Shown here in pieces: positions 141 to 58,734 of a stretch of 60,678 nt of DNA. Numbering within the stretch: the stretch's first letter is position 1; each line of letters starts with the position of its first letter. Origin of the DNA: Bacteroidota bacterium (lineage in GTDB: Bacteria; Bacteroidota; Bacteroidia; J057; RFSG01); contig CANHCC010000001.1 of NCBI GenBank assembly GCA_947459115.1, positions 1 to 60,678 of the forward strand, read 5' to 3'. The notes under the pieces are model-generated. The model saw only the letters and a list, made by a program, of their open reading frames with translations. It had not been told where the DNA came from and searched no databases. Made by a program: the position numbers and the translations under genes.

Positions 141-159
141 CCCCCCCCCCCCCCCCCCC
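141..159 (+). repeat. Homopolymeric poly-C tract, 19 consecutive C
   Basis: Counted directly: C141-C159, then T160 and CCC161-163. It lies between an upstream ATG (112) and the ATG-207 start of the 1401-aa ORF. Confidence 0.95.
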
Positions 160-206
160 TCCCATCATGCCAAGCTGTTGTAAATCAGTTAGTTAATCTT
201 GTATTT

Positions 207-4412: not shown

Positions 4413-4452
4413 CTTAACTATATCTCCAAGAAGCGAATTTCAGTTTTGAAGT

Positions 4453-10400: not shown

Positions 10401-11937
10401 TGCGGATTCCGTATTGGTGAGTGTTGCGCCCATGCCCACAGTGGATGCAGGCAGTGTTAAAAATATCTGTGCAGGGGATTCTGTAAAGTTAGATGGACAA
10501 ATCCAAGGAGGCTTTCAGGCCAGTATTCAATGGAGTCCATCGAGTGGCCTGAATGACCCAACAACCCTAAAACCTAATGCCTCTCCGAGTGTTTCCCAAT
10601 GGTATTATTTACAGGCCTTAAATGCAAGCTGTGCCGGACCGAAGGATTCCGTGTTTGTGGTGGTGCATCCGGTTCCACAAGTGAATGCGGGGAGTGATAC
10701 CAGTGTCTGTATGCCGTATGGAAGCCTTCAATTGCAGGGCAGTGTTACAGGTGTAACGCCCCCTTTGGGGATAGAATGGCGTCCATCTTCGGGATTAACC
10801 GCCACGAATATTATAAACCCGTTTATCAATTCCTCCACTTCAATGATGTATTATCTGAAAGTGACATCCGGAGTGGCACCTACTTTGTGTAGTGCGTATG
10901 ATTCGGTGTTGATAACGATATCGCCGGAAGTGAAGTTTACGCTAATAGCGGATACAACGACCATTTGCGGAGGAGATAGTATCCGCCTTCGTACCGAAAC
11001 CGAAAACATCAACCTAATCTATAATTGGCTGCCCCAACCCTGGGTCTATCCCACCACCAGTAATGGCTCTGAGGCTTACACCAAGCCGGATACGAGTCTA
11101 TACATCAAAGTACTGGCTCAGGAAGGCGCCTGTTCCGCACAAGATTCCATATGGATCAAAGTGCATCCCAAAGTCATAGCCGACTTTACCCAGAGCCAGT
11201 CCAACTTATGCCAGCCCGATACTGTTGTCTTTCTGAACTTATCCGCCAATGCGATTTCCTATCAATGGCATTTTGGAGACAGTTCTGCTATCAACAACAC
11301 GACCAATCCTAAACATTTTTATCAATCCTTTGGAACTTATACGACCATGTTGATTAGCATAGGGGACGGAGGATGTAGGGATACTGCGTATGGAAAAATT
11401 CCGATTCAGATCCAGCCCATCTTATCCGCTGAAGTGATAAGCGATCCAGGTTTTCCGGTAGAATTAATCTTACCGGCAGGCAGTCTCAGTTTAAAAGAAA
11501 TTTCCGGCCAACTCAGTCATTGGCATTGGGACTTTGGCGACGGAACCCAGTACCAGGGCGTCGCTCAGGTGAATCACACCTATCAAAATCCAGGCACTTA
11601 TTATCTGACCTTAAGGGCACAAGACAGCAATGCCTGTCCGGTTCATTGGAAAGCAGGACCTGTGGTGATTCGTCTCCCGGAATTGTTTATCCCTAATGTT
11701 TTCAGCCCCAATGGGGATGGGATAGGCGACTACTTCCGCATCGAGTATGTCGGGAATGAGCACTACCATCTTCAAATTATAGATCGTTGGGGCGTCACGC
11801 AATTTGATACCCATAATCCCCAGCAGCCATGGGACGGCCGGGATTTAAACGGGAGCGCCGTCAGTGAAGGGGTATATTTTTATGTAGTCACAATAGGCCA
11901 AACCCCATTCCAGGGAAATATTACCGTGGTGCGGTAG
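4453..11937 (+). CDS. Giant T9SS cargo / gliding-type surface protein: SBBP beta-propeller-like repeats, Ig-like domains, about 13 SprB repeats, about 6 further Ig-like repeats, PKD domains, type B CTD
   Basis: 2494-aa ORF with a signal peptide (VVIFQLLIFNFCNSQ). SBBP-like motifs are present (NNIYVAGLF, GYLYLSGDF, GHIYVTGYL, FIAKFDSSGIPIW). The SprB repeat motif C-F-G-G-S-N-G...GGT-P-Y-x-Y-x-W-N-T recurs. FGDGT marks the PKD motifs. The tail reads FSPNGDGIGDYF. Confidence 0.9.
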   Translation: MSQKICVVVIFQLLIFNFCNSQVNFHWTKRSVQPSGMPSLTTAVLEDSNGDVIVSGYYKDTIIWDNVLLNSPNSSPGSFTAYISKFDPTGSAIWSISPGHRLRTMSYATKVVSDRNNNIYVAGLFKDTILFNSPNYLVSSVPNRYNVFLAKYNASGVFQWVIHGNNNLLGNEWPDLTIDSLGYLYLSGDFSPPVDNSILNLGNLNVVSNRSTNGFIAKVDTSGMVLWLHATSNTLNSNGVVHFNSITNSNCGHIYVTGYLTGTSNYTVNFSSHLQYSYTSGVGPDVFILKCDSSGNILWSQVFSGSRTDLGLDVTTHNDESLFLIGRYNSPSITIGNFTLSNVNSVFDGFIAKFDSSGIPIWANSFSGNGSSWPSNINCNDSAWLYVHGHFNSDTCYYLNRTFVPPTPTPSVSSSFYLKIDTAGQPLCHSVLDSTEFIISNNTLFVSQVHRDTMFYNALVSKETNTGLSQVSKCSCGPDTLLATLSGTQTICSGYPGQALMQFSGVGPYSITYSDGTSNTTVTGITNRYYFINATPSASVSYTLMAFSGASGPGPFSGMASIQVIQAPTASLSAAQTICQGDSVRLSVNLGGTGPWRFTYASGSGNLAVTALTTPWTRTLTPAASFTWTVNNLNNFVCSGTSPPSSSVTVGIRPGLSLSGGTIVCAEDSLNFSAILTGSQPWSLSYTNGTTSQSFTGLTSTPFVFKTPPAASTSFSLMGGTGCRRDTILNRVIPPILQVSHTATAVSCFGGSNGTGQGSAAGGGGTFNFVWNTLPVQSVATATGLAASSWILSVTDNLGCVKRDTALITQPPQLTASITATPLSCFGQSNATATATGTGGTGAYQFSWNTNPVQSTQTASGLSATTWTVTITDQNACTAQATIPITSPTPLLLNTTATPVSCFGGSDGGVAVSANGGTPGYSYAWNTSPIRTTATVTGLNAGSYTVTVSDNQGCQTQAMVVVMPAQAPILIASSFTNISCFGGSNGTAQAIASGGSGGFSFTWNTNPIQSTQNATGLSAGSWVITVTDQQNCNRRDTLTLLQPPALSTTLTHTALACLGSSQGQATVSVTGGAPAYSYTWNTNPIQTTATATGLSAGTWQVQVRDLNSCTDSAQVILTEPPLLTLSNSGTAISCFGGSNGTATTTASGGTPPYTYSWNTNPVQTTANATGLTAGTWTVTVLDANLCQQISATTITQPTILNLFTSFTAVQCFGGTNGTATAQANGGTAPYTYTWNTTPIQTSTTATGLRAGTYSIQIQDAQNCQSTATLTIPQPAAITLNSLINPVSCPGGNDGSVTVAASGGNGPYAYTWNTLPVQTGTTGTGLSAGTWGISITDASGCRLDTNLIMTQPPAITLTQTITPVSCLGRSDGSISILPSGGNPPYTCTWNTLPVQTSFTATGLSQQFYLATITDIRGCQHQENISVPTQAPIQIQITPQPTSCNNTLDGQAALTVTGGTPNYSYAWSTIPIQTLTTATGLAPGIWQVMVTDSRACVDSASTLIISPTALQVSATANDVSCFGLSDGAASGSFSGGTPPYTYSWNTTPLQTTQVITGIPAGIYGFTVNDANGCSSTATVVVRQPTALSGTLNPTRPLCHGGNDGSLTATISGGIAPYAYLWTGGQTSASIYQLTAGSYSLIVTDANACTLILTTLLTEPSPLQANITGFNLTCMAPPNNGAASVNPTGGTAPYSYLWTGGNFPTQANNSGFSAGTWSVQVLDANNCMTQASVTLTAPQRPIAHAGQDTFFCAGSGGIQLNGTGSGGLVPYSYQWSPNNGSLSNANAPDPIANPDSITIYYLTVTDAAGCSSLIPDQVIISPIDLPIADAGPDEDYCMTGPAVFISGSVANPASGGYSWKWIPATGLFCDTCPTTYANPSTTTIYTLIVTHLSTGCSSDSTTLNTQSSVTITVKPRPIVYAGLDTTICPGDTAYLCATATGVGPLYTYEWSPNIGMNDSTQQCPGVSPNHSIYYFVVATSEGCESPADSVLVSVAPMPTVDAGSVKNICAGDSVKLDGQIQGGFQASIQWSPSSGLNDPTTLKPNASPSVSQWYYLQALNASCAGPKDSVFVVVHPVPQVNAGSDTSVCMPYGSLQLQGSVTGVTPPLGIEWRPSSGLTATNIINPFINSSTSMMYYLKVTSGVAPTLCSAYDSVLITISPEVKFTLIADTTTICGGDSIRLRTETENINLIYNWLPQPWVYPTTSNGSEAYTKPDTSLYIKVLAQEGACSAQDSIWIKVHPKVIADFTQSQSNLCQPDTVVFLNLSANAISYQWHFGDSSAINNTTNPKHFYQSFGTYTTMLISIGDGGCRDTAYGKIPIQIQPILSAEVISDPGFPVELILPAGSLSLKEISGQLSHWHWDFGDGTQYQGVAQVNHTYQNPGTYYLTLRAQDSNACPVHWKAGPVVIRLPELFIPNVFSPNGDGIGDYFRIEYVGNEHYHLQIIDRWGVTQFDTHNPQQPWDGRDLNGSAVSEGVYFYVVTIGQTPFQGNITVVR
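6655..9660 (+). repeat. About 13 tandem SprB-type repeats (about 231 nt / 77 aa each) inside the 2494-aa ORF
   Basis: Counted 13 occurrences of the CxG(G)xxG...GG(T/S)xxYxYxW(N/S/T) unit in the translation. The copies have diverged at DNA level. Confidence 0.8.
11674..11934 (+). other. T9SS type B C-terminal domain (gliding motility-associated C-terminal domain, CHU_C-like)
   Basis: LPELFIPNVFSPNGDGIGDYFRIEY...IIDRWGVTQFD...WDGRDLNG..VSEGVYFYVV...GNITVVR. Confidence 0.85.
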
Positions 11938-11957
11938 ATACGCGATGCATCGCGTAT
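11938..11957 (+). other. Perfect 20-bp palindrome ATACGCGATGCATCGCGTAT immediately after the stop codon of the giant ORF
   Basis: Read directly; it is its own reverse complement. As RNA it would form an 8-bp stem with a UGCA loop. No U-tract follows, so it is not a canonical intrinsic terminator. Confidence 0.9.
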
Positions 11958-12026
11958 CCACCGCCGCCCACCGCCGCGTATCCACCACCGCGCACCCACC
12001 ACCACCACCCCCCACCCACCACCGCC
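11958..12026 (+). repeat. C-rich low-complexity tract (CCA/CCG-type repeats; GCGTATCCACC occurs twice across 11938-12026)
   Basis: Hand count over the 69 nt gives 46 C, 13 A, 8 G and 2 T. It lies between the giant ORF and moaA. Confidence 0.9.
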
Positions 12027-23341: not shown

Positions 23342-24298
23342 ATGGATATTACATTATTGCTTTCTAATATTACGAATCCTACCCTTCTGTTTTTTGTGCT
23401 GGGGGTTTTTGCTGTACGGGTGAAAAGTGATTTGGAAATTCCCCCGTCTTCAGCCAAATTTATTTCGCTCTATCTATTGTTTGCTATTGGGTTTAAAGGT
23501 GGTCAGGAATTATCGCATAGCGCCTTCACGCCGGAAATCTTGTGGTCTCTTCTTTTCGGATTAGCAATTTCCGCCTGCATTCCTGCCTATTCATTTTTTA
23601 TTCTGAAGCGAAGGTTGACGATTTCAGATTCTGCGGCAATTGCTGCGGCTTATGGCTCGGTCAGCGCAGTAACTTTTGTAGCGGCTTCCTCTTTTTTGGA
23701 GGCGCGTCAGTTGAATTTTGGTGGGCACATGGTAGCTGTTATGGCTTTCATGGAAACGCCGGCTATTATTGTTGGGATGTTGATGTTGAAACTCTATGAA
23801 TCAGATTCCAATGTCTCTTTTCGGCAGACGGCTCATCATTCCTTTACCAACGGAAGTGTCTTGTTGATTTTGGGCAGTCTGGTGATTGGCTTGATTGCGG
23901 ATGAAAAACAGGCGGAAGGTATTAAGCCCTTCACAACAGATATTTTCAAAGGGTTTCTGGCTATTTTTCTTTTAGAAATGGGCATGGTAAGCGGTCGGAA
24001 CCTGGCCTCTTTTTTTAAATATGGCTGGTTTGCTCCGGTTTTTGCTGCGCTGATGCCTTTAGTTAATGGATGTCTCGTGGCATTTATTTCCGGCTCAGTG
24101 ACCCAAGAGGCCGGAAATCGTCTCATGTTTGCCGTCCTTGCGGCAAGTGCCTCTTACATTGCGGTTCCTGCTGCCATGAAAATGGCTGCGCCTAAAGCAG
24201 ATCCCGGATTGTATATCCCCATGGCGCTTGCCGTGACCTTTCCTTTGAATATTACGGTGGGCATGCCCTTGTACTTATGGGTTGTAGGGATGAGTTAA
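23342..24298 (+). CDS. Sodium-dependent bicarbonate transport (SbtA-like) family permease
   Basis: 318 aa and polytopic. The N-terminal pattern NP.LLFFVLG......KSDLEIP......ISLYLL.AIG.KGG.EL resembles the SbtA family as I recall it. No HMM was run. Confidence 0.55.
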   Translation: MDITLLLSNITNPTLLFFVLGVFAVRVKSDLEIPPSSAKFISLYLLFAIGFKGGQELSHSAFTPEILWSLLFGLAISACIPAYSFFILKRRLTISDSAAIAAAYGSVSAVTFVAASSFLEARQLNFGGHMVAVMAFMETPAIIVGMLMLKLYESDSNVSFRQTAHHSFTNGSVLLILGSLVIGLIADEKQAEGIKPFTTDIFKGFLAIFLLEMGMVSGRNLASFFKYGWFAPVFAALMPLVNGCLVAFISGSVTQEAGNRLMFAVLAASASYIAVPAAMKMAAPKADPGLYIPMALAVTFPLNITVGMPLYLWVVGMS

Positions 24299-24304
24299 GG
24301 TGAC

Positions 24305-24384
24305 GGTAAGTTACTTACCCCCCTTGGTAAGTTACTTACCCCCCTTGGTAAGTTACTTACCCCCCCCTTGGTAAGTTACTTACC
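24305..24384 (+). repeat. Tandem array A: 4 copies of the near-palindromic 15-mer GGTAAGTTACTTACC separated by C-rich spacers (CCCCTT, CCCCTT, CCCCCCTT)
   Basis: Read directly. Units start at 24305, 24326, 24347 and 24370 (periods 21, 21, 23 nt). The arms GGTAAGT and ACTTACC are reverse complements around a central T. The array lies between the sbtA-like stop (24298) and the lipoprotein ATG (24403). Confidence 0.95.
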
Positions 24385-24402
24385 TTTCTTAATTTTATAT
24401 GC

Positions 24403-25098
24403 ATGAAACTCATCCTATTCTCCCTTTGCTTTTCCTTCTTCCTCTCCTGCACACAGTCCCCTTCCTCGGAGGATTCAATAAATGTTCCCAGCCCATCCGG
24501 GCTGGAAATCCAGGAACAGGTCCTTAAGGAAGGATTTAGTCCATACAAGGTTCAAATCCCCGATAGAGATACTTTCGTCTTCATTCAGCAGTGGGATGCT
24601 TGCAAAGATTTTGCAGCCTGTCAGCTGAAAGACCTGACTTCCGGTCAAAAAAAACATATTCAAATTATTGATAAAAAACAGGAGGCGATGTTGCGCCTGT
24701 TCGGGTTGGGGGCTTTAGTCCTGGGGAAGAAAGACAAGGTGATGATTATTGACTATACGGAATATAAAGACCTTCAATGCGAAGGGGTCTCCGAGCCAAT
24801 TCGCAAGGGCGTTGGTGTCAGGGCCGCTATCTTTATTCGAAATTCAGATTCTAAACTCCAGCTTACTTCTCCTGCACAGGTTGCTGCTGCGGTTGAGCTT
24901 GGTCAACTTCAGGCTGAACTGACCCTGCATGTGTTTGGTTTTAAAAATGAAATCAGTCGTAAAGTGCTGGAGGAATTTGGAAAGTCAGGGTCAGTATTTA
25001 ATGTAGATGCCTATCTGGCCCTGCATAATCAGGTAGGAAAAATAATGGAATCCATGCAGGATACTATGAGGGTAGAGCCGGTTAGAATTCCTATGTAA
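24403..25098 (+). CDS. Hypothetical lipoprotein
   Basis: 231 aa. The signal peptide has a lipobox (MKLILFSLCFSFFLSC-TQS). I recognise no other family motif. Confidence 0.6.
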   Translation: MKLILFSLCFSFFLSCTQSPSSEDSINVPSPSGLEIQEQVLKEGFSPYKVQIPDRDTFVFIQQWDACKDFAACQLKDLTSGQKKHIQIIDKKQEAMLRLFGLGALVLGKKDKVMIIDYTEYKDLQCEGVSEPIRKGVGVRAAIFIRNSDSKLQLTSPAQVAAAVELGQLQAELTLHVFGFKNEISRKVLEEFGKSGSVFNVDAYLALHNQVGKIMESMQDTMRVEPVRIPM

Positions 25099-43796: not shown

Positions 43797-43922
43797 TTCC
43801 AACACCAGTTTCATCGCTTCATAGTTAAATTTTGAAGATTCATCGGAATCCGCATGATTTTGACGGGATTTTTTTTAATTTTACATGTCATAAAATACTT
43901 AATAGCCATTGGTTTATCCCTT

Positions 43923-44756
43923 ATGAACGCATTAGTTGGTCGTTTTACTTTGATTTTTCTTTTCTCTGTCCTGTTTACTGCTTGTTTTAACAAGAAAAAG
44001 GATGATCAGGATTCTATCCTTACTCCCAAAATTGAGGATAAAGGCTCTCCTCTCATAGATGTTGGTCTTCCACTGGTCATTAATGTAAATGACCCAGTTA
44101 TTAAGGATGTATGGCCACAATTTGCAACCGTTTATGTGACCGGAGACAGTTTTACGCTGAATGCTTCCTTTAGTGATGATAGGAAATTGGAGAAGTTCTG
44201 GTTTGACATTAATCCTGTTTTTCAGCTATCCGTTGATAATAGTGGATGGGAATACACAGATACAAGATCCCTCACCGGAACCATTAGAGGTTTTACAAAT
44301 AAGTACAAGATTCCTAGCTCAATTGACGGTGGCTTTTATAAGCTGATTGTTAATTGTATGGATTCTGCTGGAAACCTGGCAACTCCGGTTCAGACCTACT
44401 TTATCATTCGCAACACCTTTGATGATTCGATTCCACTTTGCAAAATCACCTCCCTTGATACCAATAATTACAACAACAATTTTGTCTCGATTGGTGGTAC
44501 CGTAACAGTAGATGGTTTTACCTCAGATAACATTAGTGTGAAGTATTACGATGTGAGGGTTAAAAACAAGAACTCTCAGCAGGTTATTTCTACCCTGGTT
44601 TCTCAGGATCAGGTTTATTCTTCTCCTGTTCCTGTTGCTACCAGTTGGACAGTTCCTGCCGGTACCCCACTTGGTTGGTATCAGGTCGTCTTACGGTCTG
44701 TGGACAGATACAATAACATGGATTCCTTGACGGTAGATGTTAGGGTACAGCCATAG
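43923..44756 (+). CDS. Hypothetical lipoprotein with two Ig-like halves (possibly DUF4625-like)
   Basis: I trimmed the start to ATG 43923 (MNALVGRFTLIFLFSVLFTAC-FNKKKDD, with a lipobox). Two beta-rich halves end in similar contexts (GGFYKLIVNCMDSAGN / GWYQVVLRSVDRYNN). The family assignment is tentative. Confidence 0.55.
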   Translation: MNALVGRFTLIFLFSVLFTACFNKKKDDQDSILTPKIEDKGSPLIDVGLPLVINVNDPVIKDVWPQFATVYVTGDSFTLNASFSDDRKLEKFWFDINPVFQLSVDNSGWEYTDTRSLTGTIRGFTNKYKIPSSIDGGFYKLIVNCMDSAGNLATPVQTYFIIRNTFDDSIPLCKITSLDTNNYNNNFVSIGGTVTVDGFTSDNISVKYYDVRVKNKNSQQVISTLVSQDQVYSSPVPVATSWTVPAGTPLGWYQVVLRSVDRYNNMDSLTVDVRVQP

Positions 44757-44780
44757 TTTAGGATTAAACATTTAATAAAA

Positions 44781-44808
44781 GAGCCACCCTTGGGTGGCTC
44801 TTTTATTT
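44781..44808 (+). terminator. Intrinsic terminator after the 43923 lipoprotein gene
   Basis: GAGCCACCC-TT-GGGTGGCTC (9-bp stem) followed by TTTTATTTT. It is preceded by an A-run, so it could act in both directions. Confidence 0.75.
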
Positions 44809-44820
44809 TAGGGCGAAATG

Positions 44821-44985
44821 GGTAAGTAACTAACCCTGGGGTAAGTAACTAACCGGTGGTAAGTAACTAACCCGGAGGTAAGTAACTAACCCGGTGGTAA
44901 GTAACTAACCCGGTGGTAAGTAACTAACCGGGGGTAAGTAACTAACCGGGAGGTAAGTAACTAACCCGGGGGTAAGTAACTAACC
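44821..44985 (+). repeat. Tandem array B: 9 copies of the 15-mer GGTAAGTAACTAACC with 3-4 nt G/C-rich spacers (CTGG, GGT, CGGA, CGGT, CGGT, GGG, GGGA, CGGG)
   Basis: Read directly. Units start at 44821, 44840, 44858, 44877, 44896, 44915, 44933, 44952 and 44971 (periods 18-19 nt). All nine cores are identical. The reverse complement GGTTAGTTACTTACC differs at one position from the array A core. Confidence 0.95.
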
Positions 44986-45028
44986 CGAATATGTAGGCAA
45001 CGAGAGGGTATTCTGTCTGAAGCAGGAA

Positions 45029-45060
45029 TAAAAAAGGCCGGAATCACTTCCGGCCTTTTC
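45029..45060 (-). terminator. Intrinsic (bidirectional) terminator downstream of the minus-strand 45078 gene
   Basis: GGCCGGAA-TCAC-TTCCGGCC, flanked by AAAAAA on one side and TTTTCTGTGTTTTTT on the other. Confidence 0.75.
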
Positions 45061-45077
45061 TGTGTTTTTTAAATATC

Positions 45078-45560
45078 TTATTGTTGATTGGGGTCGTACT
45101 CGAATACAATAATTTCAAATTGAGTGCCTCCTCCTGATGGAACAATTAATATGTAATTGTTTAATCCATTCGCGGTAACTTCCATTCTTGCGCCGGAAAG
45201 GCTGGTCGTATAAACAGTACCACCTCTTGCTGTGACCATATTGGCATATTGAGTGATAATCTGATTGTCATTTGCAGGGGCTACATTGGGCGCAATTGCA
45301 TACGAGTACCTTTTAAGGGTGCCAGTAATCGTATGATCGTGTGTATGGTTATGATTGTTGTTTGTAATGTAGTCCATTTGGGCATTGGGCCTATTACTGT
45401 AATTATAGATAAAGAAATTGGCAGGCCTGGAATTAAAGAGGGCGTGTTGTTGCACTCCTGGCATATCGGCTGTTGCGGTGAGTAGTTGACCTGATTGCGC
45501 AAATATTGCACCGGATCCAAGAAGAAATAAGCAAATAGCAGAGAAGAAGATGTTTTTCAT
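45078..45560 (-). CDS. Hypothetical secreted protein with a His-rich segment
   Basis: I trimmed the start to ATG 45560 (MKNIFFSAICLFLLGSGAIFAQ signal peptide). It contains NNNHNHTHDHT. I recognise no family. Confidence 0.55.
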   Translation of the reverse strand: MKNIFFSAICLFLLGSGAIFAQSGQLLTATADMPGVQQHALFNSRPANFFIYNYSNRPNAQMDYITNNNHNHTHDHTITGTLKRYSYAIAPNVAPANDNQIITQYANMVTARGGTVYTTSLSGARMEVTANGLNNYILIVPSGGGTQFEIIVFEYDPNQQ

Positions 45561-45749
45561 ATGGAGGATTTTAAACGGAAATAACGAAAAGGAACATGAC
45601 AAATATAAAAAACATAATTGAAAACAATCCCGGTATTGGGTAAGATTTGTGTTTACAATGTTAATTTTAGTGTCTGAAGGGTTAAAAAAAGGCGGTTTTC
45701 GGGTGTGAATAACTGGATTAGCAGGAAAAATAAAAAAGTGTAAAAAAAT

Positions 45750-50553: not shown

Positions 50554-53500
50554 ATGTTAGCAAATATTCATAAAAACGACCGGATTTCGTTCTCCAAACT
50601 AAAAAAGCAATTCGAATACCCCGATTTGCTTGAAATCCAGATAAAGTCATTTAAAGAATTCATGCAACTTGAAACGCCGCCTGATAAAAGGACGGACGAA
50701 GGGTTGCATAAAGTGTTTCAGGAAAATTTTCCAATCTCAGATGCTCGCGAAAATTTTATCCTTGAGTTTCAGGACTATTACATTGATCCCCCAAAATACG
50801 ATATTGACGAATGCAAAGAGAGAGGGCTTACTTATGCGGTCCCTCTAAAAGCAAAGCTATATTTATATTGTACCGATGCGGAGAATGACGACTTCGAACC
50901 GGTAGTTCAGGAGGTCTATCTCGGGAACATCCCGTATATGACCCCATCCGGCACATTCATTATCAATGGTGCTGAAAGAGTAATTGTAAGTCAGTTACAT
51001 CGTTCCCCTGGTGTATTCTTTGGGCAAAGCGTTCATGCCAACGGTACAAGGCTATATTCAGCTCGTATCATCCCCTTCAAAGGGTCTTGGGTTGAATTTG
51101 CGACGGATGTGAACAATATCATGTATGCTTACATTGATCGCAAAAAGAAATTCCCCGTTACGACATTGTTGCGGGCTATCGGGTATTCTTCCGATAAAGA
51201 TATTCTGGAAATATTCGGACTCTCCGAGGAAGTCAAGGCCAATAAGGCAAACCTCAAAAAGGCAGTAGGTCGTAAACTAGCTGCAAGGGTACTCAAAACC
51301 TGGACGGAGGATTTTGTGGATGAGGATACCGGAGAAGTGGTGAGTATTCAAAGAAATGAAGTGATCCTCGAAAGAGATCATATCCTCAAAGATGAGGATG
51401 TGGATTTGATTATTGACTCAGCTCAGAAATCTGTGATTCTGATGTCTGAAAGCAATAACAACAACGAATACAGTATTATCTACAATACCCTTCAAAAAGA
51501 CAGCTCAAATTCAGAAAAAGAAGCAATTGAGCTGATCTATCGTCAGCTTCGCAATGCCGAGGCTCCTGACGAAGAGACTGCAAGAGGGATAATCGATAAG
51601 TTGTTCTTCTCAGATAAGCGTTACGATCTTGGAGAAGTTGGGCGTTTCCGTCTCAATAAAAGATTGCATGGGGATTCCGAAGAAACCAGTCAGGTTTTAA
51701 CCAAGAAAGATATTATTCGGATTGTTCAGTTTATCATTGAATTGCTGAACAGTAAAGCCAATGTGGATGATATTGACCACTTAAGTAACCGTCGTGTTCG
51801 TACCGTAGGAGAGCAGCTTCATGCACAATTTGGTGTAGGGCTTTCTCGTATGGCGCGCACCATTCGTGAAAGAATGAACATCCGGGATAATGAGGTCTTT
51901 ACGCCTGCAGATTTGATTAATGCACGGACGCTTTCCAGTGTAATCAATTCTTTCTTTGGTACAAATCAGCTCAGCCAATTTATGGATCAAACCAATCCAT
52001 TGGCGGAGATTACGCACAAAAGAAGAATGTCTGCCCTTGGCCCTGGTGGTCTTTCCCGTGAAAGAGCCGGTTTCGAGGTCAGGGACGTTCACTATACCCA
52101 TTACGGAAGACTTTGTCCGATTGAAACTCCGGAAGGTCCAAACATCGGTCTTATTTCCTCTCTCTGTGTGTTCGCTAAAGTAAATCCTCTTGGATTTATT
52201 GAAACGCCTTATCGCCTTGTAAAAGATGGTAAAGTGTCGGATGATATCCGATACATGAGCGCTGAGGAAGAAGATAATATCACAATTGCTCAGTCTCAGG
52301 TTGCCCTGGATGAAAAAGGTCGCTTCACAGAAGAAAATATTCAGGCAAGGATACAAGGGGATTTCCCCAAAGTAAGTAAGGACGAAATTAATCTGATGGA
52401 TGTTGCCCCAAATCAGATTGTAAGTCTTGCCGCGTCCCTGATTCCTTTCCTTGAACATGATGATGCTAACCGTGCGCTCATGGGCTCGAACATGCAGCGT
52501 CAGGCAGTACCTTTGCTAACTGCTGAAGCGCCTATTGTTGGAACCGGTATCGAAAGAAGAGCTGCTGTGGATTCCAGAGCACTCATCATTGCTAAAGGCA
52601 AAGGGGTTGTTGAATTTGTGGATGGGAATAGTATCGTGGTTCGTTATGACAGAAATGCAGATGAAGACTTAGTGTCTTTTGATACAAATGTCGTAACCTA
52701 TAAAATTCCTAAATTTAGAAGGACCAATCAAAGCACCTGCGTAAACTTAAAGCCAATTGTTAAAACCGGTGATAAAGTTGAAGAAGGCTCGATTTTGGTT
52801 GAAGGATATTCTACACAGACCGGTGAATTGGCCTTGGGTAAAAACTTACTGGTGGCATTCATGCCATGGCAAGGTTACAACTTTGAGGATGCTATCGTGA
52901 TTTCCGAAAAGGTGGTCATGCAGGATGTGTTTACTTCTATTCACATTGACGAGTACGAACTTCAGGTTCGCGACACTAAGCGCGGCCAGGAAGAATTAAC
53001 TTCTGAAATTCCGAATGTAAGCGAAGAGGCTACCCGTAACCTGGATTTAAATGGCCTTATTCGTGTGGGGTCTGAGGTTAGGGAAGGCGATATTCTTATA
53101 GGGAAAATTACCCCTAAAGGAGAAACCGACCCAACGCCGGAAGAAAAACTCCTTCGTGCCATCTTTGGTGATAAAGCCGGTGATGTGAAGGATGCATCCC
53201 TGAAAGCACCTCCATCTGTAAGAGGGGTTGTTATCGATAATAAACTTTTCTCAAAAGACAGAAGAGATACCAAGTCCAAAAACAACGAGAAAAAATTACT
53301 CGCTGAACTTGAGACAGTATATACTGCTAATATCTCTGATCTGAATAAGTCCATGATTGAGAAATTATTGCGTGTGCTGGGCGATCAAAAGGTCAACAGC
53401 GTGCGGAATAAATACAACGAGGATGTTATCGGGTCCGGTAAGAAGTTTTCAGAAAAAGCATTGAGTGGTATTAATTTCAATGACCTGAATCCATCAGATT

Positions 53501-54360
53501 GGACCAACGATGAAAAAACCAATACACTGGTCAAAGAATTGTTCCACAATTACAAGCGTCGTTTCAATGAAATCGATGGTCGTTACAAGCGGGATAAATA
53601 TCAGGTTAGTGTTGGAGATGAACTTCCCCCCGGAATCATCAAATTGGCCAAGGTTTATGTCGCCAACAAGCGTAAGCTAAAAGTAGGAGATAAGATGGCC
53701 GGTCGTCACGGTAATAAAGGGGTCGTAGCGAAAATCGTGCGGGAGGAAGATATGCCATTCCTGGAAGACGGAACACCGGTGGATATTGTCTTGAATCCAC
53801 TTGGGGTACCTTCAAGGATGAACTTGGGTCAGATTTATGAAACCGTACTGGGTTGGGCCGGAAGGAAATTGGGGGTTAAATTTTCCACGCCCATCTTCGA
53901 TGGTGCCTCTTCTGATGAAGTGAACGACTACCTTGAAAAAGCTAAGCTGCCACCTTACGGTAGAACTTTCCTCTATGATGGTCAAACGGGAGATCGTTTT
54001 GATCAGCCAACCACTGTGGGAATTATTTACATGCTCAAACTGGGTCACCTGGTAGATGATAAGATGCATGCCCGTTCTATTGGTCCATACTCTCTCATTA
54101 CCCAGCAACCATTGGGTGGTAAAGCACAATTCGGGGGTCAGCGTTTCGGGGAAATGGAAGTTTGGGCACTGGAGGCATTCGGTGCATCTCATATCCTTCA
54201 GGAACTTCTGACTGTGAAGTCGGATGATGTGATTGGAAGGGCCAAAACCTATGAATCCATTGTGAAAGGTGATAATGTCCCTGTTCCCAATATCCCTGAA
54301 TCTTTCAATGTGTTATTACACGAGTTGAGAGGCTTGGCCTTAGAAATAACTTTAGATTAA
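50554..54360 (+). CDS. rpoB: DNA-directed RNA polymerase subunit beta
   Basis: 1268 aa with an N-terminal RISF...[10 protein letters not shown], the rif-region pattern ([30 protein letters not shown]), and NMQRQAVP. Confidence 0.98.
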
Positions 54361-54384: not shown

Positions 54385-57300
54385 ATGAAGAAGGATTTCA
54401 AACTTAAAAGCAATTTCAAGAACATCACCATCAGTCTGGCCTCACCTGAGTCCATCCTGAACCGTTCACACGGTGAGGTGTTGAAGCCTGAAACAATCAA
54501 TTACCGGACCTATAAACCGGAAAAAGACGGACTCTTCTGCGAGCGCATTTTCGGTCCCGTGAAGGACTATGAATGCCATTGTGGTAAGTATAAAAGGATT
54601 CGTTACAAAGGAATTATCTGCGATCGTTGCGGTGTAGAGGTTACTGAAAAGAAAGTTCGGCGCGAGCGTATGGGACATATTTCCTTAGTCGTTCCGGTTG
54701 CACATATCTGGTATTTCCGCTCTTTGCCCAACAAAATCGGGTATCTCCTGGGCTTGCCCAGTAAAAAACTCGATCAAATTATTTACTACGAGCGCTATGT
54801 CGTAATCAACGCCGGTATTAAATCAGAAGAAGGTGTTGTAGACAATGATTTTCTGACGGAAGAGGAATACCTCGAAATTCTGGAAACCCTCCCCAAAGAA
54901 AATCTTTTGCTGCCTGAGGAAGATCCGAATAAGTTCATCGCTAAAATGGGCGCTGATGCATTAGAAATGATGTTAAAGCGTTTGGATCTCGATAAGCTTT
55001 CAGGCGGATTGCGTCATAAGGCTGCCAATGAGACTTCTCAACAGCGGAAAAATGATGCCCTTAAGCGCTTAAAAATTATTGAGTCTTTCCGTGCCGCTCA
55101 GGGGAGAATTGAAAACCGTCCAGAATGGATGATCATTCGTATGGTGCCGGTTATTCCTCCGGAACTAAGACCTTTGGTGCCTTTGGAAGGTGGTCGTTTC
55201 GCAACATCTGACTTGAATGATCTTTACAGACGGGTTATTATCCGTAACAATCGTCTGAAGCGTTTGATTGAAATCAAAGCGCCTGATGTGATTCTAAGAA
55301 ATGAAAAGAGAATGTTGCAGGAAGCTGTAGATTCTCTCTTCGATAATACCCGTAAAGTCAATGCGGTGCGTACAGAATCCAACCGTGCTTTAAAGTCTTT
55401 GAGTGATATGCTCAAAGGTAAGCAAGGCCGATTCCGTCAAAACCTGCTTGGTAAAAGGGTGGATTACTCAGGTCGTTCCGTAATTGTCGTTGGGCCAACG
55501 CTGAAACTGCATGAGTGCGGACTTCCTAAGGATATGGCGGCCGAGTTATTTAAGCCGTTTATTATCCGTAAGCTCATTGAAAGAGGTATTGTTAAAACGG
55601 TAAAATCTGCCAAGAAGATTGTAGATCGCAAGGATGCTATTGTTTGGGATATTCTGGAGAATGTGTTGAAAGGCCATCCGGTTCTTCTGAACCGTGCCCC
55701 AACCTTACACAGATTAGGTATCCAGGCATTCCAGCCCAAATTAGTAGAAGGTAAGGCTATTCAGCTTCACCCGCTCGTTTGTACCGGTTTTAACGCGGAT
55801 TTTGACGGTGACCAGATGGCCGTGCATGTGCCTCTGTCCCATGAAGCCTGCCTTGAAGCAATGGTTCTGATGCTGGCCAGTCATAACATCCTTCACCCAA
55901 TGAATGGTGCCCCTATTACCCTTCCTTCTCAGGACATGGTATTGGGTAACTATTACATGACGAAGGCTCGTCCCGGTCAGAAAGGGGAAGGAATGCGCTT
56001 CTACAGTCACGAAGAAGTAATTATCGCTTACAATGAAGGTAAGTTGGCTCTTCACGCCAAAATCTCGGTAAGAATTCCTAAAATAGATCCTGAAACAGGA
56101 TTGCAACCCAATGACCCCAATACGGGTCTGCCTCAGACCGAAATAATGGAAACGACCACCGGTAGGGTAATCTTTAACCAGATTGTTCCTAAGAGTGTAG
56201 GATTCATTAATAAATTATTGACCAAAAAATCAATGCGGGATATCATTATGGATATCTTCCGTAAAACCAGTATGACCCGTACGGTTCAATTCCTGGATGA
56301 CCTGAAAGAGCTTGGATTTAAATTCGCCTTCCGTGGCGGTCTTTCTTTCGGTCTTTCGGATGTATTGATTCCCCCGGATAAGGCTCACCTCATCGCTGAT
56401 GCTAATGCTAAAATTGATGAAGTAACTGAAAACTATAACATGGGTTTCATTACAGAAAATGAGCGTTATAACCAGGTTATAGATATTTGGACGCGTACGA
56501 ACTCCAAATTGACAGATGTTCTGATTAAGCAGTTGACGGACGATAATCAAGGATTTAATTCCGTCTTTATGATGCTCGATTCCGGTGCACGCGGTTCTAA
56601 AGAACAGATTCGTCAGTTGGGTGGTATGAGAGGTTTGATGGCTAAGCCACAAAAATCTTTGAAGGGCTCTGTTGGGGAGATCATCGAAAATCCGATTTTA
56701 TCCAACTTCCGTGAAGGTCTTTCTGTATTGGAATACTTTATTTCTACCCATGGTGCCCGTAAGGGTCTTGCGGATACAGCCTTGAAAACGGCGGATGCCG
56801 GTTATCTTACCAGAAGGCTGGTGGATGTTTCTCAGGATGTTATCATCACAGAAGACGATTGCGGCACGCTCAGAGGTATTACCACTTCCGCGCTGAAGGA
56901 TAATGAGGATATTGTTGAACCCTTGTCTGAAAGAATTCTTGGCCGTGTATCCATTGAAGATGTGCGTGATCCATTGACCGATGAACTGATTGTAAGTGTA
57001 GGTCAGATGATTGATGATAAAATCGCAAAGCGCCTCGATGAGTCTGCGATTGAATCTGTTGAAATTCGTTCCGTGCTTACCTGCGAGTCTAAAAGAGGGG
57101 TATGTGCTAAATGTTATGGTCGTAATCTTGCAACTGCTGCCCTGGTTCAGGTTGGTGAAGCTGTAGGGGTTATTGCTGCTCAGTCTATCGGTGAACCCGG
57201 AACGCAGCTGACACTCCGTACTTTCCACGTGGGTGGTGCTGCACAGCGTTTAACTTCAGAAAGTCAGATTAAGAGTAAGTTTGATGGGGTTGTACAATTC

Positions 57301-58734
57301 GAAGGAATTAAAACCGTTGAACTGAAAGATGAATCAGAAGATGCAGGAAGTGGTAAGCGTCATGTCGTCATTGGGCGTAGTGGTGAATTGAAAATCACTG
57401 ACGGGAAAGATAAATTGCTGGTGACTTACAATGTTCCTTATGGTTCTGAAATCCTGATTAAAGACGGAGATAAAATTACTAAAGGTCAAGACCTATGTAA
57501 GTGGGATCCCTACAACGCGGTAATTCTTTCTGAATTCCCCGGAAAGGTTGTATTCGAAAATATCATTGAAGGTGTTACTTTCCGTGAAGAATCGGATGAA
57601 CAAACCGGACACAAAGAAAAAGTTATCACAGAAAGCCGCGATAAAACAACCAATCCGGCGATCAAGATTGTGGATACTAAAACAGGTGATACGCTGAAGA
57701 ATTACAATATTCCGGTAGGTTCTCACATTATCGTAGATGATAATGATAAGGTTAAATCCGGTCAGATTCTGGTTAAAATTCCGCGTCAGACAGGAAAGAC
57801 TTCGGATATCACCGGCGGTCTGCCGCGTGTAACAGAATTGTTTGAAGCGCGTAACCCGTCTAATCCTGCAGTGGTCTCTGAAGTAGATGGTATCGTAACG
57901 CTTGGCACGATCAAGCGTGGTAACCGTGAGATTGTTGTTCAGTCCAGAGATGGTCAGGATGAAAGAAAATACCTGGTGCCATTGTCCAAACATATCTTGG
58001 TACAGGATAATGACTTGGTATATGCCGGTAGTCCGTTATCAGATGGTGCAATTACGCCTGCAGATATTCTGCGCATTAAAGGATCCAGTGCAGTTCAAGA
58101 GTATATCGTAAATGAAATCCAGGAGGTATATCGTCTTCAGGGGGTTAAAATCAACGATAAACACATTGAAGTTGTCGTTCGTCAGATGATGCAAAAGGTG
58201 TTAATTGAAGATCCGGGCGATACGACTTTCCTTGAAAAGGAAATCGTAGACAAAATCGAATTCCAGGAGGTTAATGACGATATTTTTGACAAGAAGTATG
58301 TCGTTGATGCCGGAGATTCTGAAAATGTAACCGTTGGACAGTTGATTAGCTCCCGTAAGTTAAGGGATGAAAACTCTATGCTCATTCGTAAGGATAAAAA
58401 GCCTGTCGAAGTTAGAGATGCTAAACCTGCGATCGCTTATCCTACCCTTCAGGGTATCACCAGAGCTTCTCTTGGTACTAAGTCCTTTATGTCAGCAGCC
58501 TCCTTCCAGGAAACAACGAAGGTGTTGAATGAAGCCGCCATCACAGCTAAAGTGGATCACCTGTTGGGCTTGAAGGAGAATGTTATTGTAGGTCACCTGA
58601 TTCCGGCAGGAACAGGCTTAAGAGCCTATGAGGATTTGATTGTTGCAGATGCAGAAGAAATCGCCAATCTGAAGGAGGTCGCTTCGGGAGAAAAAACCGG
58701 ACGCGATTCCATTCTTGAAAAGTTGAAGCGATAA
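54385..58734 (+). CDS. rpoC: DNA-directed RNA polymerase subunit beta'
   Basis: 1449 aa with the zinc-binding CHCGKY...CDRCGVEV and the catalytic [12 protein letters not shown]. Confidence 0.98.

What the first reader, a model, noticed from the sequence alone, without database searches (positions are those of the whole stretch)
44821..44985. Array B: nine identical 15-mers at 18-19 nt period, boxed in by two intrinsic terminators between convergent genes
**Seen in the sequence**
- GGTAAGTAACTAACC occurs 9 times with perfectly conserved cores and variable 3-4 nt spacers (CTGG, GGT, CGGA, CGGT, CGGT, GGG, GGGA, CGGG).
- The array begins 13 nt after the terminator of the 43923 gene (44781-44808). 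It ends 50 nt before a bidirectional terminator (45036-45060).
- The mixed 18/19 nt period rules out a coding repeat.
- Conserved cores with variable spacers argue that selection acts on the core rather than this being simple replication slippage of one unit.

**Inference**
- It could be an independently transcribed repeat RNA of about 200-260 nt, ending at the 45036 hairpin plus T-run. That would be a multi-site sponge, analogous in architecture to CsrB/RsmZ-type sRNAs, which titrate a binding protein. Bacteroidota are not known for CsrA, so the partner would be something else.
- It could be a DNA-level array of protein-binding sites.
- It could be a recombination or structural element.
- I cannot match it to any repeat family I know.
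Basis: seen in the sequence. Interest (0 to 1): 0.65.

Follow-up and report, generated by a model that had tools for sequence, protein, structure and literature searches.

The report
Hypervariable palindromic minisatellite, not an sRNA
The nine 15-mers are real, but they are one copy-number-variable array of a dispersed family of short palindromic DNA repeats in a freshwater Bacteroidia lineage, missing from the closest relatives and without evidence of a dedicated RNA, so they look like a REP-like genomic repeat, not a regulatory "sponge" gene.

Summary
There are nine exact GGTAAGTAACTAACC units at 44821-44985, with 3-4 nt spacers, between two intrinsic terminators of convergent genes.

The array is not a unique locus. 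The window holds a second array (24305-24384, 4 x GGTAAGTTACTTACC). The same 15-bp palindromic core forms head-to-tail arrays at 20 or more other intergenic sites in lake metagenomes, next to unrelated housekeeping genes.

In conspecific contigs with identical flanks, array B has about 2, 9, 11 or 14 units and array A has 3 to at least 10. Runs of identical neighbouring spacers point to unit duplication by slippage. Cores do mutate (0.6-1.2% of bases). Spacer change is mostly C/G-run length.

The nearest sampled relatives (84-89% protein identity, same synteny) lack both arrays.

- No Rfam family matches.
- No Bacteroidetes-type promoter motif is present.
- No orientation bias relative to genes is seen.
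- No RNA contig joins the array to its unique flanks.

Single-stranded, the array folds back as one long imperfect hairpin, not as a multi-loop sponge.

Best reading: a young, hypervariable, REP/BIME-like palindromic minisatellite family whose way of spreading is unknown. The sponge-RNA idea is not supported. Interest is modest.

The parts
44821..44985 (.). Array B: 9 x GGTAAGTAACTAACC (a one-mismatch palindrome) with 3-4 nt G-rich spacers. It is a copy-number-variable minisatellite.
   Evidence: Orthologous contigs hold about 2, 11 or 14 units, or mutated cores.
24305..24384 (.). Array A: 4 x GGTAAGTTACTTACC (a perfect palindrome) with CCCCTT or CCCCCCTT spacers. It belongs to the same repeat family in the opposite polarity. 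It lies 7 nt after the stop codon of the Sbt_1 gene and 19 nt before the ATG of the next gene.
   Evidence: Contigs with an identical Sbt_1 protein hold 3 to at least 10 units. The array is absent in relatives at 83-89% identity.
44774..44807 (+). Context: intrinsic terminator of the upstream DUF4625 gene. It is not part of the repeat.
   Evidence: Searches show the 15-bp stem; one search shows the T-run.
45032..45059 (.). Context: bidirectional intrinsic terminator serving the downstream (-) gene. It is not part of the repeat.
   Evidence: An RNA contig of the (-) gene ends at 45062.
43854..44756 (+). Context: DUF4625-domain protein gene (the likely start is 43923).
45078..45602 (-). Context: ORF with a signal-peptide-like N-terminus and no Pfam match, convergent with the DUF4625 gene.
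   Evidence: It is called as a 160-aa gene in the orthologous contig.

Best explanation
Array B is one locus of a lineage-restricted, dispersed family of extragenic palindromic repeats.

**The unit.** The unit is a 15-bp dyad, GGTAAGT-W-ACTTACC. Array B carries the half-site variant ACTAACC. In most arrays a short G-run abuts the dyad on one strand.

**How arrays change (shown).**
- Units sit head to tail.
- Copy number varies between near-identical strains.
- The arrays are missing from the nearest sampled relatives.
- They occupy intergenic spots next to unrelated genes.

**Mechanism (inferred).** Every core is self-complementary, so any core can pair with any other. A single-stranded array therefore folds back on itself. 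This favours misaligned replication and gain or loss of whole core-plus-spacer units by slipped-strand mispairing. The C/G homopolymer junctions slip as well, which makes spacers change faster than cores.

**Spread (not shown).** How cores reach new loci is unknown. A hairpin-recognising single-strand DNA enzyme, such as a RAYT-type HUH Y1 transposase as for REP elements, is the most economical guess.

**Effect (inferred).** The array is probably neutral or nearly so. It persists because the space between two terminators of convergent genes tolerates insertions. Any effect, such as a structured block in read-through RNA or a local DNA structure, would be a by-product, not a dedicated gene function.
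For: **A family, not a unique locus.**
- The window holds a second array.
- A generalised two-core pattern finds 23 metagenome contigs and 2 contigs of one GTDB Bacteroidia MAG, and none in viral contigs.
- DNA runs holding this genome show the ACTAACC-type core joined to at least 4 other flanks.

**Intergenic, with no shared flanks.**
- All arrays are intergenic and begin and end with a full core.
- They have no shared flanks or terminal inverted repeats.
- Neighbours are unrelated housekeeping genes, for example lycopene cyclase, signal peptidase, RuvX, a release factor, AhpC/TSA and M23 peptidase. No transposase is among them.

**Position and polarity.**
- By my tally, 5 of about 9 loci with both sides visible are convergent.
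- Spacer polarity shows no bias relative to adjacent genes: about 7 C-rich versus 6 G-rich at 3' ends, and 5 versus 5 at 5' ends.
- Arrays A and B have opposite polarity although GC skew does not switch sign across the window.

**Hypervariability.**
- Array B has about 2, 9, 11 or 14 units behind an identical 64-nt left flank.
- Array A has 3, 4, 6, 6, 7 or at least 10 units beside an identical Sbt_1 protein.
- One DNA contig shows an 18-nt (one-unit) deletion.
- Neighbouring spacers are identical in runs: CGGT x5, CCCCTT x4, CCCCTTA x4.

**Cores are not immutable.** 0.6-1.2% of core bases depart from consensus across strains.

**Youth.** Relatives with 84-89% identical flanking proteins and the same synteny have no array at either locus.

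**Structure.**
- The whole array folds back: z = -6.7 on the + strand and -8.2 on the - strand.
- A single B core has no stable hairpin (0 kcal/mol), while core-spacer-core pairs do fold.
Against: - The way the family spreads is not identified. No RAYT or transposase lies in the window or beside 20 other arrays.
- The same core is kept across many loci and at least two or three organisms while spacers differ completely. A symmetric double variant, GGTAAGCWGCTTACC, keeps the dyad. Both facts could reflect selection by a dimeric binding protein instead of mere common descent or palindrome-templated correction.
- A polar G-run abuts 91% of units, and neutral slippage does not explain it.
- Array-type RNA contigs occur in 4 metatranscriptomes, in one case where the flanking genes have no coverage. 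Some arrays are therefore transcribed, or the RNA is stable, or DNA was carried over.
- Copy numbers come from short-read assemblies, which can collapse repeats.
Confidence: 0.6

Rival explanations
1. The array is a DNA-level set of binding sites for a homodimeric DNA-binding protein, such as a nucleoid-associated, segregation or silencing factor. The protein would recognise the 7-N1-7 dyad GGTAAGT-W-ACTTACC, and the arrays would act as high-avidity landing pads.
For: - The core is a perfect 15-bp dyad with a free central W, the classic dimer operator geometry.
- The symmetric double variant GGTAAGCWGCTTACC preserves the dyad.
- The core is kept across loci whose spacers are unrelated.
- There is no strand bias relative to transcription, which fits action on DNA.
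Against: - Spacing is not phased: 18/19 nt in B, 21/23 nt in A, and core-to-core spacers of 2-11 nt across the family.
- Copy number is free to vary from 2 to 14.
- Arrays are absent at orthologous sites in relatives.
- No solo sites occur in 60 kb.
- Array B uses a broken dyad.
- Neighbouring genes share no theme.
- No candidate protein has been identified.
Confidence: 0.15
2. The array is a cis-acting RNA element carried on read-through or polycistronic transcripts, as proposed for REP elements. The structured repeat would block 3'-5' exonucleases, back up termination, or insulate convergent transcription.
For: - Array A lies 7 nt after a stop codon and 19 nt before the next ATG, so it is very probably co-transcribed.
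- Arrays often abut gene 3' ends, and in L001 and L022 the first core supplies the stop codon.
- Array-type RNA contigs occur in metatranscriptomes.
- The predicted fold-back is strong.
Against: - Array B sits behind a strong terminator on each side, so little read-through is expected.
- RNA contigs of the flanking genes stop before the array.
- Orientation shows no bias relative to adjacent genes.
- Arrays also lie upstream of genes.
- They are absent from relatives.
Confidence: 0.12
3. This is the first reader's lead idea: an independently transcribed repeat RNA of about 200-260 nt, ending at the 45032-45059 hairpin, that titrates an RNA-binding protein as a CsrB/RsmZ-like sponge.
For: - A repeated motif lies between two terminators, with a hairpin plus T-run 46 nt downstream.
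- Array-type sequences are present in 4 RNA libraries.
- Two of the 8 spacers contain GGA.
Against: - No Bacteroidetes -7 motif lies upstream.
- The unique segments 44770-44818 and 44986-45060 have zero RNA coverage in all 11 runs laid on them. In X28 the flanking genes reach 7-11x and tuf reaches 80-100x.
- Rfam gives nothing above threshold.
- The predicted fold is one long duplex-like hairpin, not exposed loops.
- The would-be binding loops (the spacers) are the variable part.
- Unit number varies from 2 to 14 and the locus is empty in relatives.
- The family shows no strand polarity relative to transcription.
Confidence: 0.04
4. The array is a non-B DNA structural element. G-runs separated by hairpin-forming cores would form G-quadruplex or cruciform structures that modulate replication, recombination or supercoiling locally.
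For: - On one strand, 73% of units have at least 4 G and 91% at least 3 G abutting the core.
- Cores are self-complementary.
Against: - Array B itself mostly has interrupted runs (GG[T/A]GG), and only about half of its junctions carry at least 3 G.
- Polarity is not tied to replication direction, since A and B are opposite within one window whose GC skew does not switch sign.
- The idea is purely predictive, and no structure was tested.
Confidence: 0.05

Closest known systems
REP / BIME elements (repetitive extragenic palindromes) and REPINs of Enterobacteria and Pseudomonas
   Same: - Short palindromic units.
- Strictly extragenic, with many dispersed copies.
- Often clustered and sometimes reiterated in tandem (Di Nocera et al. 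2013, PMC3733652, read).
- Frequent between convergent genes.
- Variable between strains.
- No coding capacity.
   Different: - The unit is only 15 bp.
- There is no GTAG or CGTC tag. A G-run sits at one end instead.
- Organisation is pure head-to-tail arrays with 2-11 nt spacers, not inverted pairs 20-100 bp apart.
- No RAYT gene has been identified.
- The array B core does not fold on its own.
Bacterial VNTRs / minisatellites (for example mycobacterial MIRU; the 23-bp minisatellite inside the Porphyromonas gingivalis 'BrickBuilt' MITE, cited from memory)
   Same: - Head-to-tail units of 18-26 bp.
- Copy number polymorphic among strains.
- Slippage signature of runs of identical neighbouring units.
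   Different: - The same core recurs at many unrelated loci with locus-specific spacers.
- There is no surrounding MITE with terminal inverted repeats.
- The unit is a palindrome.
TAACTGA heptamer direct-repeat sets of Beggiatoaceae, Cyanobacteria and five Bacteroidetes (MacGregor 2015, PMC4679880)
   Same: - Short, stop-codon-rich, intergenic direct repeats.
- Sporadic phylogenetic distribution.
- Variable array length, with no known mobilisation mechanism.
   Different: - Those are contiguous heptamers without spacers, not palindromic, and mostly oriented just upstream of start codons.
- Here the units are 15-bp dyads with spacers and no orientation bias.
Cyanobacterial small dispersed repeats (SDR, 21-27 nt; Elhai et al. 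2008, Genome Res, cited from memory)
   Same: Very small dispersed repeats, partly palindromic, that appear mobile without an identified enzyme.
   Different: SDRs are mainly single insertions, often nested in other repeats. They are not homogeneous head-to-tail arrays. No sequence similarity was tested.
CsrB/RsmZ-type protein-sponge sRNAs
   Same: The only shared feature is the superficial architecture of many copies of a short motif in a non-coding stretch followed by a terminator.
   Different: - No promoter and no discrete transcript.
- No conserved unpaired GGA motif.
- No conservation in relatives.
- The array folds as one long hairpin.
CRISPR arrays
   Same: Regularly interspaced short palindromic repeats.
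   Different: - The repeat is 15 bp and the spacers 2-11 nt, far below CRISPR dimensions.
- Spacers are low-complexity.
- No cas genes lie in the window.

Membership tests
REP/BIME (RAYT-associated extragenic palindromes) | A conserved GTAG or CGTC tetranucleotide tag at one end of the palindrome (Di Nocera 2013) | tested here: not met
   The core and its junctions contain neither GTAG/CTAC nor CGTC/GACG. A G-run abuts one end instead.
REP/BIME (RAYT-associated extragenic palindromes) | A 20-40 bp imperfect palindrome that folds as a stem-loop on its own | tested here: inconclusive
   The unit is 15 bp. The A-type core folds weakly (-2.7 kcal/mol as DNA) and the B-type core does not fold (0 kcal/mol).
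REP/BIME (RAYT-associated extragenic palindromes) | Many dispersed extragenic copies per genome | tested here: met
   There are 2 arrays in 60 kb, at least 4 further flanks in runs holding this genome, and more than 20 intergenic loci in metagenomes. The full genome count is unknown.
REP/BIME (RAYT-associated extragenic palindromes) | A cognate RAYT (Y1 HUH transposase) gene flanked by the repeats | not testable with these tools
   No complete genome was available. No such gene lies in the window or beside 20 arrays.
VNTR / minisatellite | Head-to-tail tandem units of about 10-100 bp | tested here: met
   TRF gives period 19 with 8.9 copies for B and period 21 with 3.7 copies for A.
VNTR / minisatellite | Copy-number polymorphism among closely related strains | tested here: met
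   Array B has about 2, 9, 11 or 14 units and array A has 3 to at least 10, beside identical flanking proteins. Caveat: these are short-read assemblies.
CsrB/RsmZ-type sponge sRNA | A discrete, abundant transcript with its own promoter and terminator | tested here: not met
   No TAnnTTTG motif is present. No RNA contig lies on the unique flanks in 11 metatranscriptomes. Because the evidence comes from contigs, absence is not absolute.
CsrB/RsmZ-type sponge sRNA | A conserved binding motif (GGA) exposed in loops or single-stranded spacers | tested here: not met
   Only 2 of 8 spacers hold GGA. The spacers are the variable part, and the predicted fold is one long helix.
CsrB/RsmZ-type sponge sRNA | Conservation of the locus among related species | tested here: not met
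   The array is absent in relatives at 75-87% (locus B) and 83-89% (locus A) identity.
CRISPR | Repeats of about 23-55 bp, unique spacers of about 21-72 bp, and adjacent cas genes | tested here: not met
   The repeat is 15 bp and the spacers 2-11 nt and low-complexity. No cas domains occur in the window.
Iteron / plasmid centromere arrays (parC, sopC type) | Constant helical phasing and adjacency to rep or par genes | tested here: not met
   The period is mixed at 18/19 and 21/23 nt. The neighbours are housekeeping chromosomal genes, and there is no plasmid or phage match.
MITE with internal minisatellite | Conserved terminal inverted repeats, subterminal sequence and target-site duplication around the array | tested here: not met
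   Arrays abut unique sequence directly, and flanks differ at every locus.

The most novel reading that the evidence does not exclude
The arrays could be the footprint of an undescribed, very small mobile or self-amplifying DNA element in freshwater Bacteroidia.

- The element would be a 15-bp dyad plus a polar G-run.
- An unidentified single-strand DNA enzyme would recognise and copy it head to tail. Candidates are an HUH/RAYT-like enzyme or some other type.
- Alternatively, a dedicated dimeric protein would bind it.
- Either way, core constancy across loci and the dyad-preserving double variant would reflect protein recognition, not recent descent.
Probability: 0.15. Interest if true: 0.6.

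Novelty: new variant of a known kind. Interest (0 to 1): 0.3.

Why it matters
**Practical consequences**
- These arrays break short-read assemblies. Contigs end in them. They are therefore under-represented in MAG catalogues: only 1 of 185,579 GTDB species representatives shows the pattern.
- They would make good strain-typing (VNTR) markers for an abundant lake bacterium.

**Biological consequences**
- The family adds a Bacteroidia example to the poorly understood class of tiny dispersed palindromic repeats.
- It combines three features: a perfect 15-bp dyad, a polar G-run, and pure head-to-tail arrays. None of these matches REP tags.
- If a cognate enzyme or binding protein exists, it would be new.

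**For the scan**
A neat motif array boxed by terminators should not be read as an sRNA gene unless it is conserved in relatives and has transcript evidence.

Tried and rejected
**Known RNA families and mobile-element databases**
- Rfam at gathering thresholds on the whole window gave only 5 tRNAs.
- Rfam at E<=10 on 44700-45100 gave only sub-threshold hits on the two terminator hairpins.
- The exact two-unit pattern with a 4-nt spacer found nothing in GTDB representative genomes.
- The generalised pattern found nothing in viral contigs.
- blastn of the array against plasmids and phages gave no match.

**Transcript evidence**
- I looked for RNA linking the array to its flanks in 11 metatranscriptomes. 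Only array-internal contigs of 31-57 nt turned up.
- This cannot separate low-level transcription from DNA carry-over, or tell which locus the RNA comes from.
- A strict Bacteroidetes -7 motif scan found nothing near either array.

**Copy number**
- No long-read (Nanopore) runs that could confirm copy number could be listed.

**Ancestral site and origin of spacers**
- I looked for an empty-site footprint. At locus B the sister-species spacer is not alignable.
- At locus A the relative has an unrelated 54-nt spacer containing only an 11/15 core-like stretch.
- I considered target-site duplication as the source of spacers. Flanks and spacers show no consistent similarity.

**Associated genes**
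- Pfam found no associated transposase or RAYT among the window genes or 20 array neighbours.

**Rejected as coincidence**
- The resemblance of GTAAGT / ACTAAC to eukaryotic 5' splice-site and branch-point consensus sequences is a by-product of the near-palindrome in a bacterial chromosome.
- The same applies to the resemblance of TTAC to the IS608 target site.

**First look-up failure**
- The exact-protein look-up with the 43923 start failed. The 43854 start is the one on record.

Full report
**1. The observation**

The stretch 44821-44985 holds nine exact copies of GGTAAGTAACTAACC. The spacers are CTGG, GGT, CGGA, CGGT, CGGT, GGG, GGGA and CGGG. Tandem Repeats Finder scores the array at 273-301 with period 19. 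None of 100 dinucleotide-preserving shuffles approaches the match count.

The array begins 13 nt after a strong terminator hairpin (about 44774-44807, then a T-run). It ends 46-50 nt before a bidirectional terminator (45032-45059). The flanking genes are convergent: a DUF4625 protein gene at 43854/43923-44756 (+) and an unannotated ORF with a signal-peptide-like start at 45078-45602 (-).

Two details can be added. The core is a one-mismatch palindrome (GGTAAGT versus the complement of ACTAACC, which is GGTTAGT). It also carries TAA in all three forward frames.

**2. The setting**

The window is an ordinary Bacteroidota chromosome segment. It contains:
- SprB-repeat/CHU_C and Por_Secre_tail (type IX secretion) surface proteins;
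- molybdenum-cofactor genes, KsgA, PepA, PdxA, an Sbt_1 transporter, FeoB, SerRS, Rho and a P-type ATPase;
- a tRNA cluster, tuf, ribosomal protein genes and two large ORFs at 50554-54360 and 54385-58734, placed where rpoB and rpoC usually lie.

I assigned nusG, the ribosomal protein genes and rpoB/rpoC by position and size only, not by a domain search.

No transposase, cas gene or plasmid or phage gene is present. The stretch occurs in at least 20 lake-water metagenome runs.

**3. A family, not a unique locus**

A second array lies at 24305-24384. It has four perfect palindromes, GGTAAGTTACTTACC, with CCCCTT or CCCCCCTT spacers.

I searched public collections with a generalised two-core pattern.
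- GTDB species representatives: 2 contigs of a single 'Bacteroidia bacterium' MAG.
- Viral contigs: none.
- Metagenome contigs: 23, mostly from one assembly.

In all of them the same 15-bp dyad, GGTAAGT-W-ACTTACC, forms head-to-tail arrays of 2-13 units. Spacers of 2-11 nt are alike within an array but unrelated between arrays. Array B's core is a hybrid of two half-site types. GGTTAGTAACTAACC, the perfect palindrome of the second type, also occurs, as does a dyad-preserving double variant, GGTAAGCWGCTTACC.

Arrays begin and end with a full core and abut unique sequence, with no shared flanks or terminal inverted repeats. All are intergenic. Their neighbours are unrelated housekeeping genes with no transposase among them.

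My tally, which uses stop-to-stop ORFs and is therefore approximate, gives two results.
- About 5 of 9 loci with both sides visible are convergent.
- Spacer polarity shows no bias relative to the adjacent gene's sense strand, either at 3' ends (about 7 versus 6) or at 5' ends (5 versus 5).

Arrays A and B have opposite polarity, although cumulative GC skew rises almost without interruption across the window. Polarity therefore does not follow replication direction either.

On one strand, 91% of units have at least 3 G and 73% at least 4 G abutting the core. Array B, with GG[T/A]GG, is the least typical in this respect.

DNA runs that hold this genome join the ACTAACC-type core to at least four other flanks. 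No solo cores occur in the 60-kb window.

**4. Population and phylogenetic behaviour**

I used the flanking DUF4625 protein to retrieve orthologous contigs.

Conspecific contigs (99% identical protein, identical 64-nt left flank) carry:
- 14 units (L028);
- 11 units (L026);
- 2 units (L033, possibly an assembly collapse);
- in another strain, partly mutated cores (L027, L030, L031, L034).

One DNA contig shows a one-unit (18-nt) deletion.

Array A, next to a 100% identical Sbt_1 protein, has 3, 4, 6, 6, 7 or at least 10 units. Identical spacers sit side by side in runs (CGGT x5, CCCCTT x4, CCCCTTA x4). This is the signature of duplication of whole core-plus-spacer units. Most spacer differences are changes in C- or G-run length plus one variable base.

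Across these contigs, 0.6-1.2% of core bases differ from consensus. Cores are therefore not invariant. The 'constant core, variable spacer' contrast within one array is largely explained by recent duplication plus slippage-prone homopolymer junctions.

The nearest sampled relatives keep the synteny but have no array.
- Locus B: at 87% (L036, L037), an unrelated spacer of about 330 nt lies between two terminators. At 75% (L039) no core is present and the downstream gene differs. The 84% contig (L038) ends 100 nt past the stop with no core in what is held.
- Locus A: at 89% (L050) and 83-84% (L051-L056) the intergenic spacers are short and unrelated.

L050 has an 11/15 match to the core at the orthologous spot. 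My estimate of the chance probability is about 0.01. It may be a decayed or seed copy.

Caveat: all copy numbers come from short-read assemblies, and no long-read run could be listed.

**5. Tests of the RNA hypothesis**

*Sequence and structure.*
- Rfam finds only tRNAs at gathering thresholds and only sub-threshold terminator look-alikes at E<=10.
- No strict Bacteroidetes -7 motif (TAnnTTTG) lies within 44600-45200 or 24200-24450 on either strand.
- As RNA, the region folds into one long imperfect fold-back through core-to-core pairing (z = -6.7 and -8.2). It does not form a row of hairpins presenting a motif.
- A single B core has no stable fold.

*Transcript evidence.* Eleven lake metatranscriptomes were laid on the locus.
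- Contigs cover the flanking genes: in X26, 44300-44761 and 45062-45504; in X28, about 10x and 7x, against 80-100x for tuf.
- In four runs there are short (31-57 nt) array-internal contigs with mismatches, at depth 2-12.
- Nothing covers the unique segments 44770-44818 or 44986-45060, which the proposed 200-260-nt RNA must contain.
- For array A, array-only contigs appear while the flanking genes have zero coverage.

Family-type repeat sequence is thus present in RNA libraries at low depth. The source could be other loci, a stable structured fragment, or carried-over DNA; contigs cannot tell these apart. An abundant discrete sRNA from this locus is not supported.

The lack of conservation and of strand polarity argues the same way.

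**6. Most likely mechanism**

*Shown.*
- The family is dispersed, extragenic and head-to-tail.
- Copy number is hypervariable.
- The arrays are young and species-restricted.
- They occupy insertion-tolerant sites.
- Single-stranded arrays have fold-back potential.

*Inferred.*
- Arrays grow and shrink by slipped-strand mispairing. This is favoured because every self-complementary core can pair with any other.
- C/G-run junctions slip independently.
- Palindrome-templated correction may help keep cores symmetric.

*Not shown.*
- How cores colonise new loci is unknown. A hairpin-recognising single-strand DNA transposase of the RAYT type is the most economical guess, but no such gene was seen.

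I put 0.6 on 'REP/BIME-like selfish or neutral palindromic minisatellite family with no dedicated function at this locus'. The rivals are:
- a binding-site array for a dimeric DNA-binding protein (0.15);
- a cis-acting structured element on read-through RNA (0.12);
- a non-B DNA element (0.05);
- the sponge sRNA (0.04).

**7. Comparison with known systems**

In lifestyle the family is closest to REP/BIME elements and to bacterial VNTRs. It meets the VNTR criteria. It fails a defining REP feature, the GTAG/CGTC tag (Di Nocera et al. 2013, PMC3733652). Its organisation also differs: head-to-tail arrays in place of inverted pairs, with 15-bp units.

It resembles the TAACTGA heptamer sets (MacGregor 2015, PMC4679880) in being stop-rich, intergenic, sporadically distributed and of unknown mobility. 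It differs from them in unit structure and in lacking orientation bias.

It is not a CRISPR array, an iteron or centromere array, a MITE, or a CsrB-type RNA (see the membership table).

I found no description of this core in the literature searches. Those searches were keyword-based and limited.

**8. Verdict**

The lead interpretation, a sponge sRNA, is not supported. The thing is a new sequence family and structural variant of a known kind of bacterial repeat. Interest is modest (0.3). It would rise only if a cognate enzyme or binding protein were found.

Noticed in passing
window 141-163: A poly-C tract (20 C, then T, then CCC) lies about 45 nt upstream of the ATG of a 1401-aa surface protein gene (207-4412) with YadA-head repeats and a Peptidase_S74 domain. 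A homopolymer of this length is a classic candidate for slippage-driven phase variation.
   Followed up: no
window 11938-12023: Directly after the stop codon of the 2494-aa SprB-repeat/CHU_C gene lies a perfect 22-nt palindrome, GATACGCGATGCATCGCGTATC. It is followed by a C-rich CCACC/CCGCC repeat tract of about 70 nt.
   Followed up: no
window 4001-12000: G+C content shifts sharply inside the 2494-aa SprB-like gene. It is 0.35 at 4-6 kb and 0.49-0.53 at 6-12 kb, with negative GC skew in the latter stretch.
   Followed up: no
L050 about 2470-2490 (orthologue of the array A site in the closest relative): No array is present, but GGTAAATTGCCAACC matches the core at 11 of 15 positions at the orthologous intergenic spot. 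By my estimate the chance probability is about 0.01. It may be a decayed single copy or a seed.
   Followed up: partly
L011, L012, L017, L021, L022 (array edges): The core variant GGTAAGCAGCTTACC / GGTAAGCTGCTTACC changes positions 7 and 9 together and keeps the dyad. This could reflect selection by a dimeric binder or palindrome-templated correction.
   Followed up: partly
L013 1-550 and L025 1600-1815 (JGI metagenomes Ga0224501 and Ga0224511): Another sampled population carries a long, degenerate array with a 25-nt period: GGT[T/C]AGTAACTTACC plus CCCACGGTGA-type spacers, in more than 20 units with many mutated cores. It shows what an old or decaying array of the family looks like.
   Followed up: no
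L026 and L032 (array B orthologues): Double spacers CGGGCGGG and CGGGCGGT occur, as if a core had been lost precisely between two spacers or a spacer had been duplicated. Simple unit slippage does not explain this.
   Followed up: no
window 24303-24365 in RNA runs X28 and X31: Array-A-type contigs (depth 2.6-5.7) appear in metatranscriptomes in which the flanking Sbt_1 gene and the downstream gene have no coverage at all. Possible sources are a stable structured RNA fragment, a contribution from other loci, or DNA carry-over.
   Followed up: partly
L001 4700 and L022 1287: The first core of the array supplies the in-frame TAA stop codon of the upstream ORF, which in L001 is a lycopene cyclase. 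The array therefore abuts or slightly overlaps the 3' end of the coding sequence.
   Followed up: no
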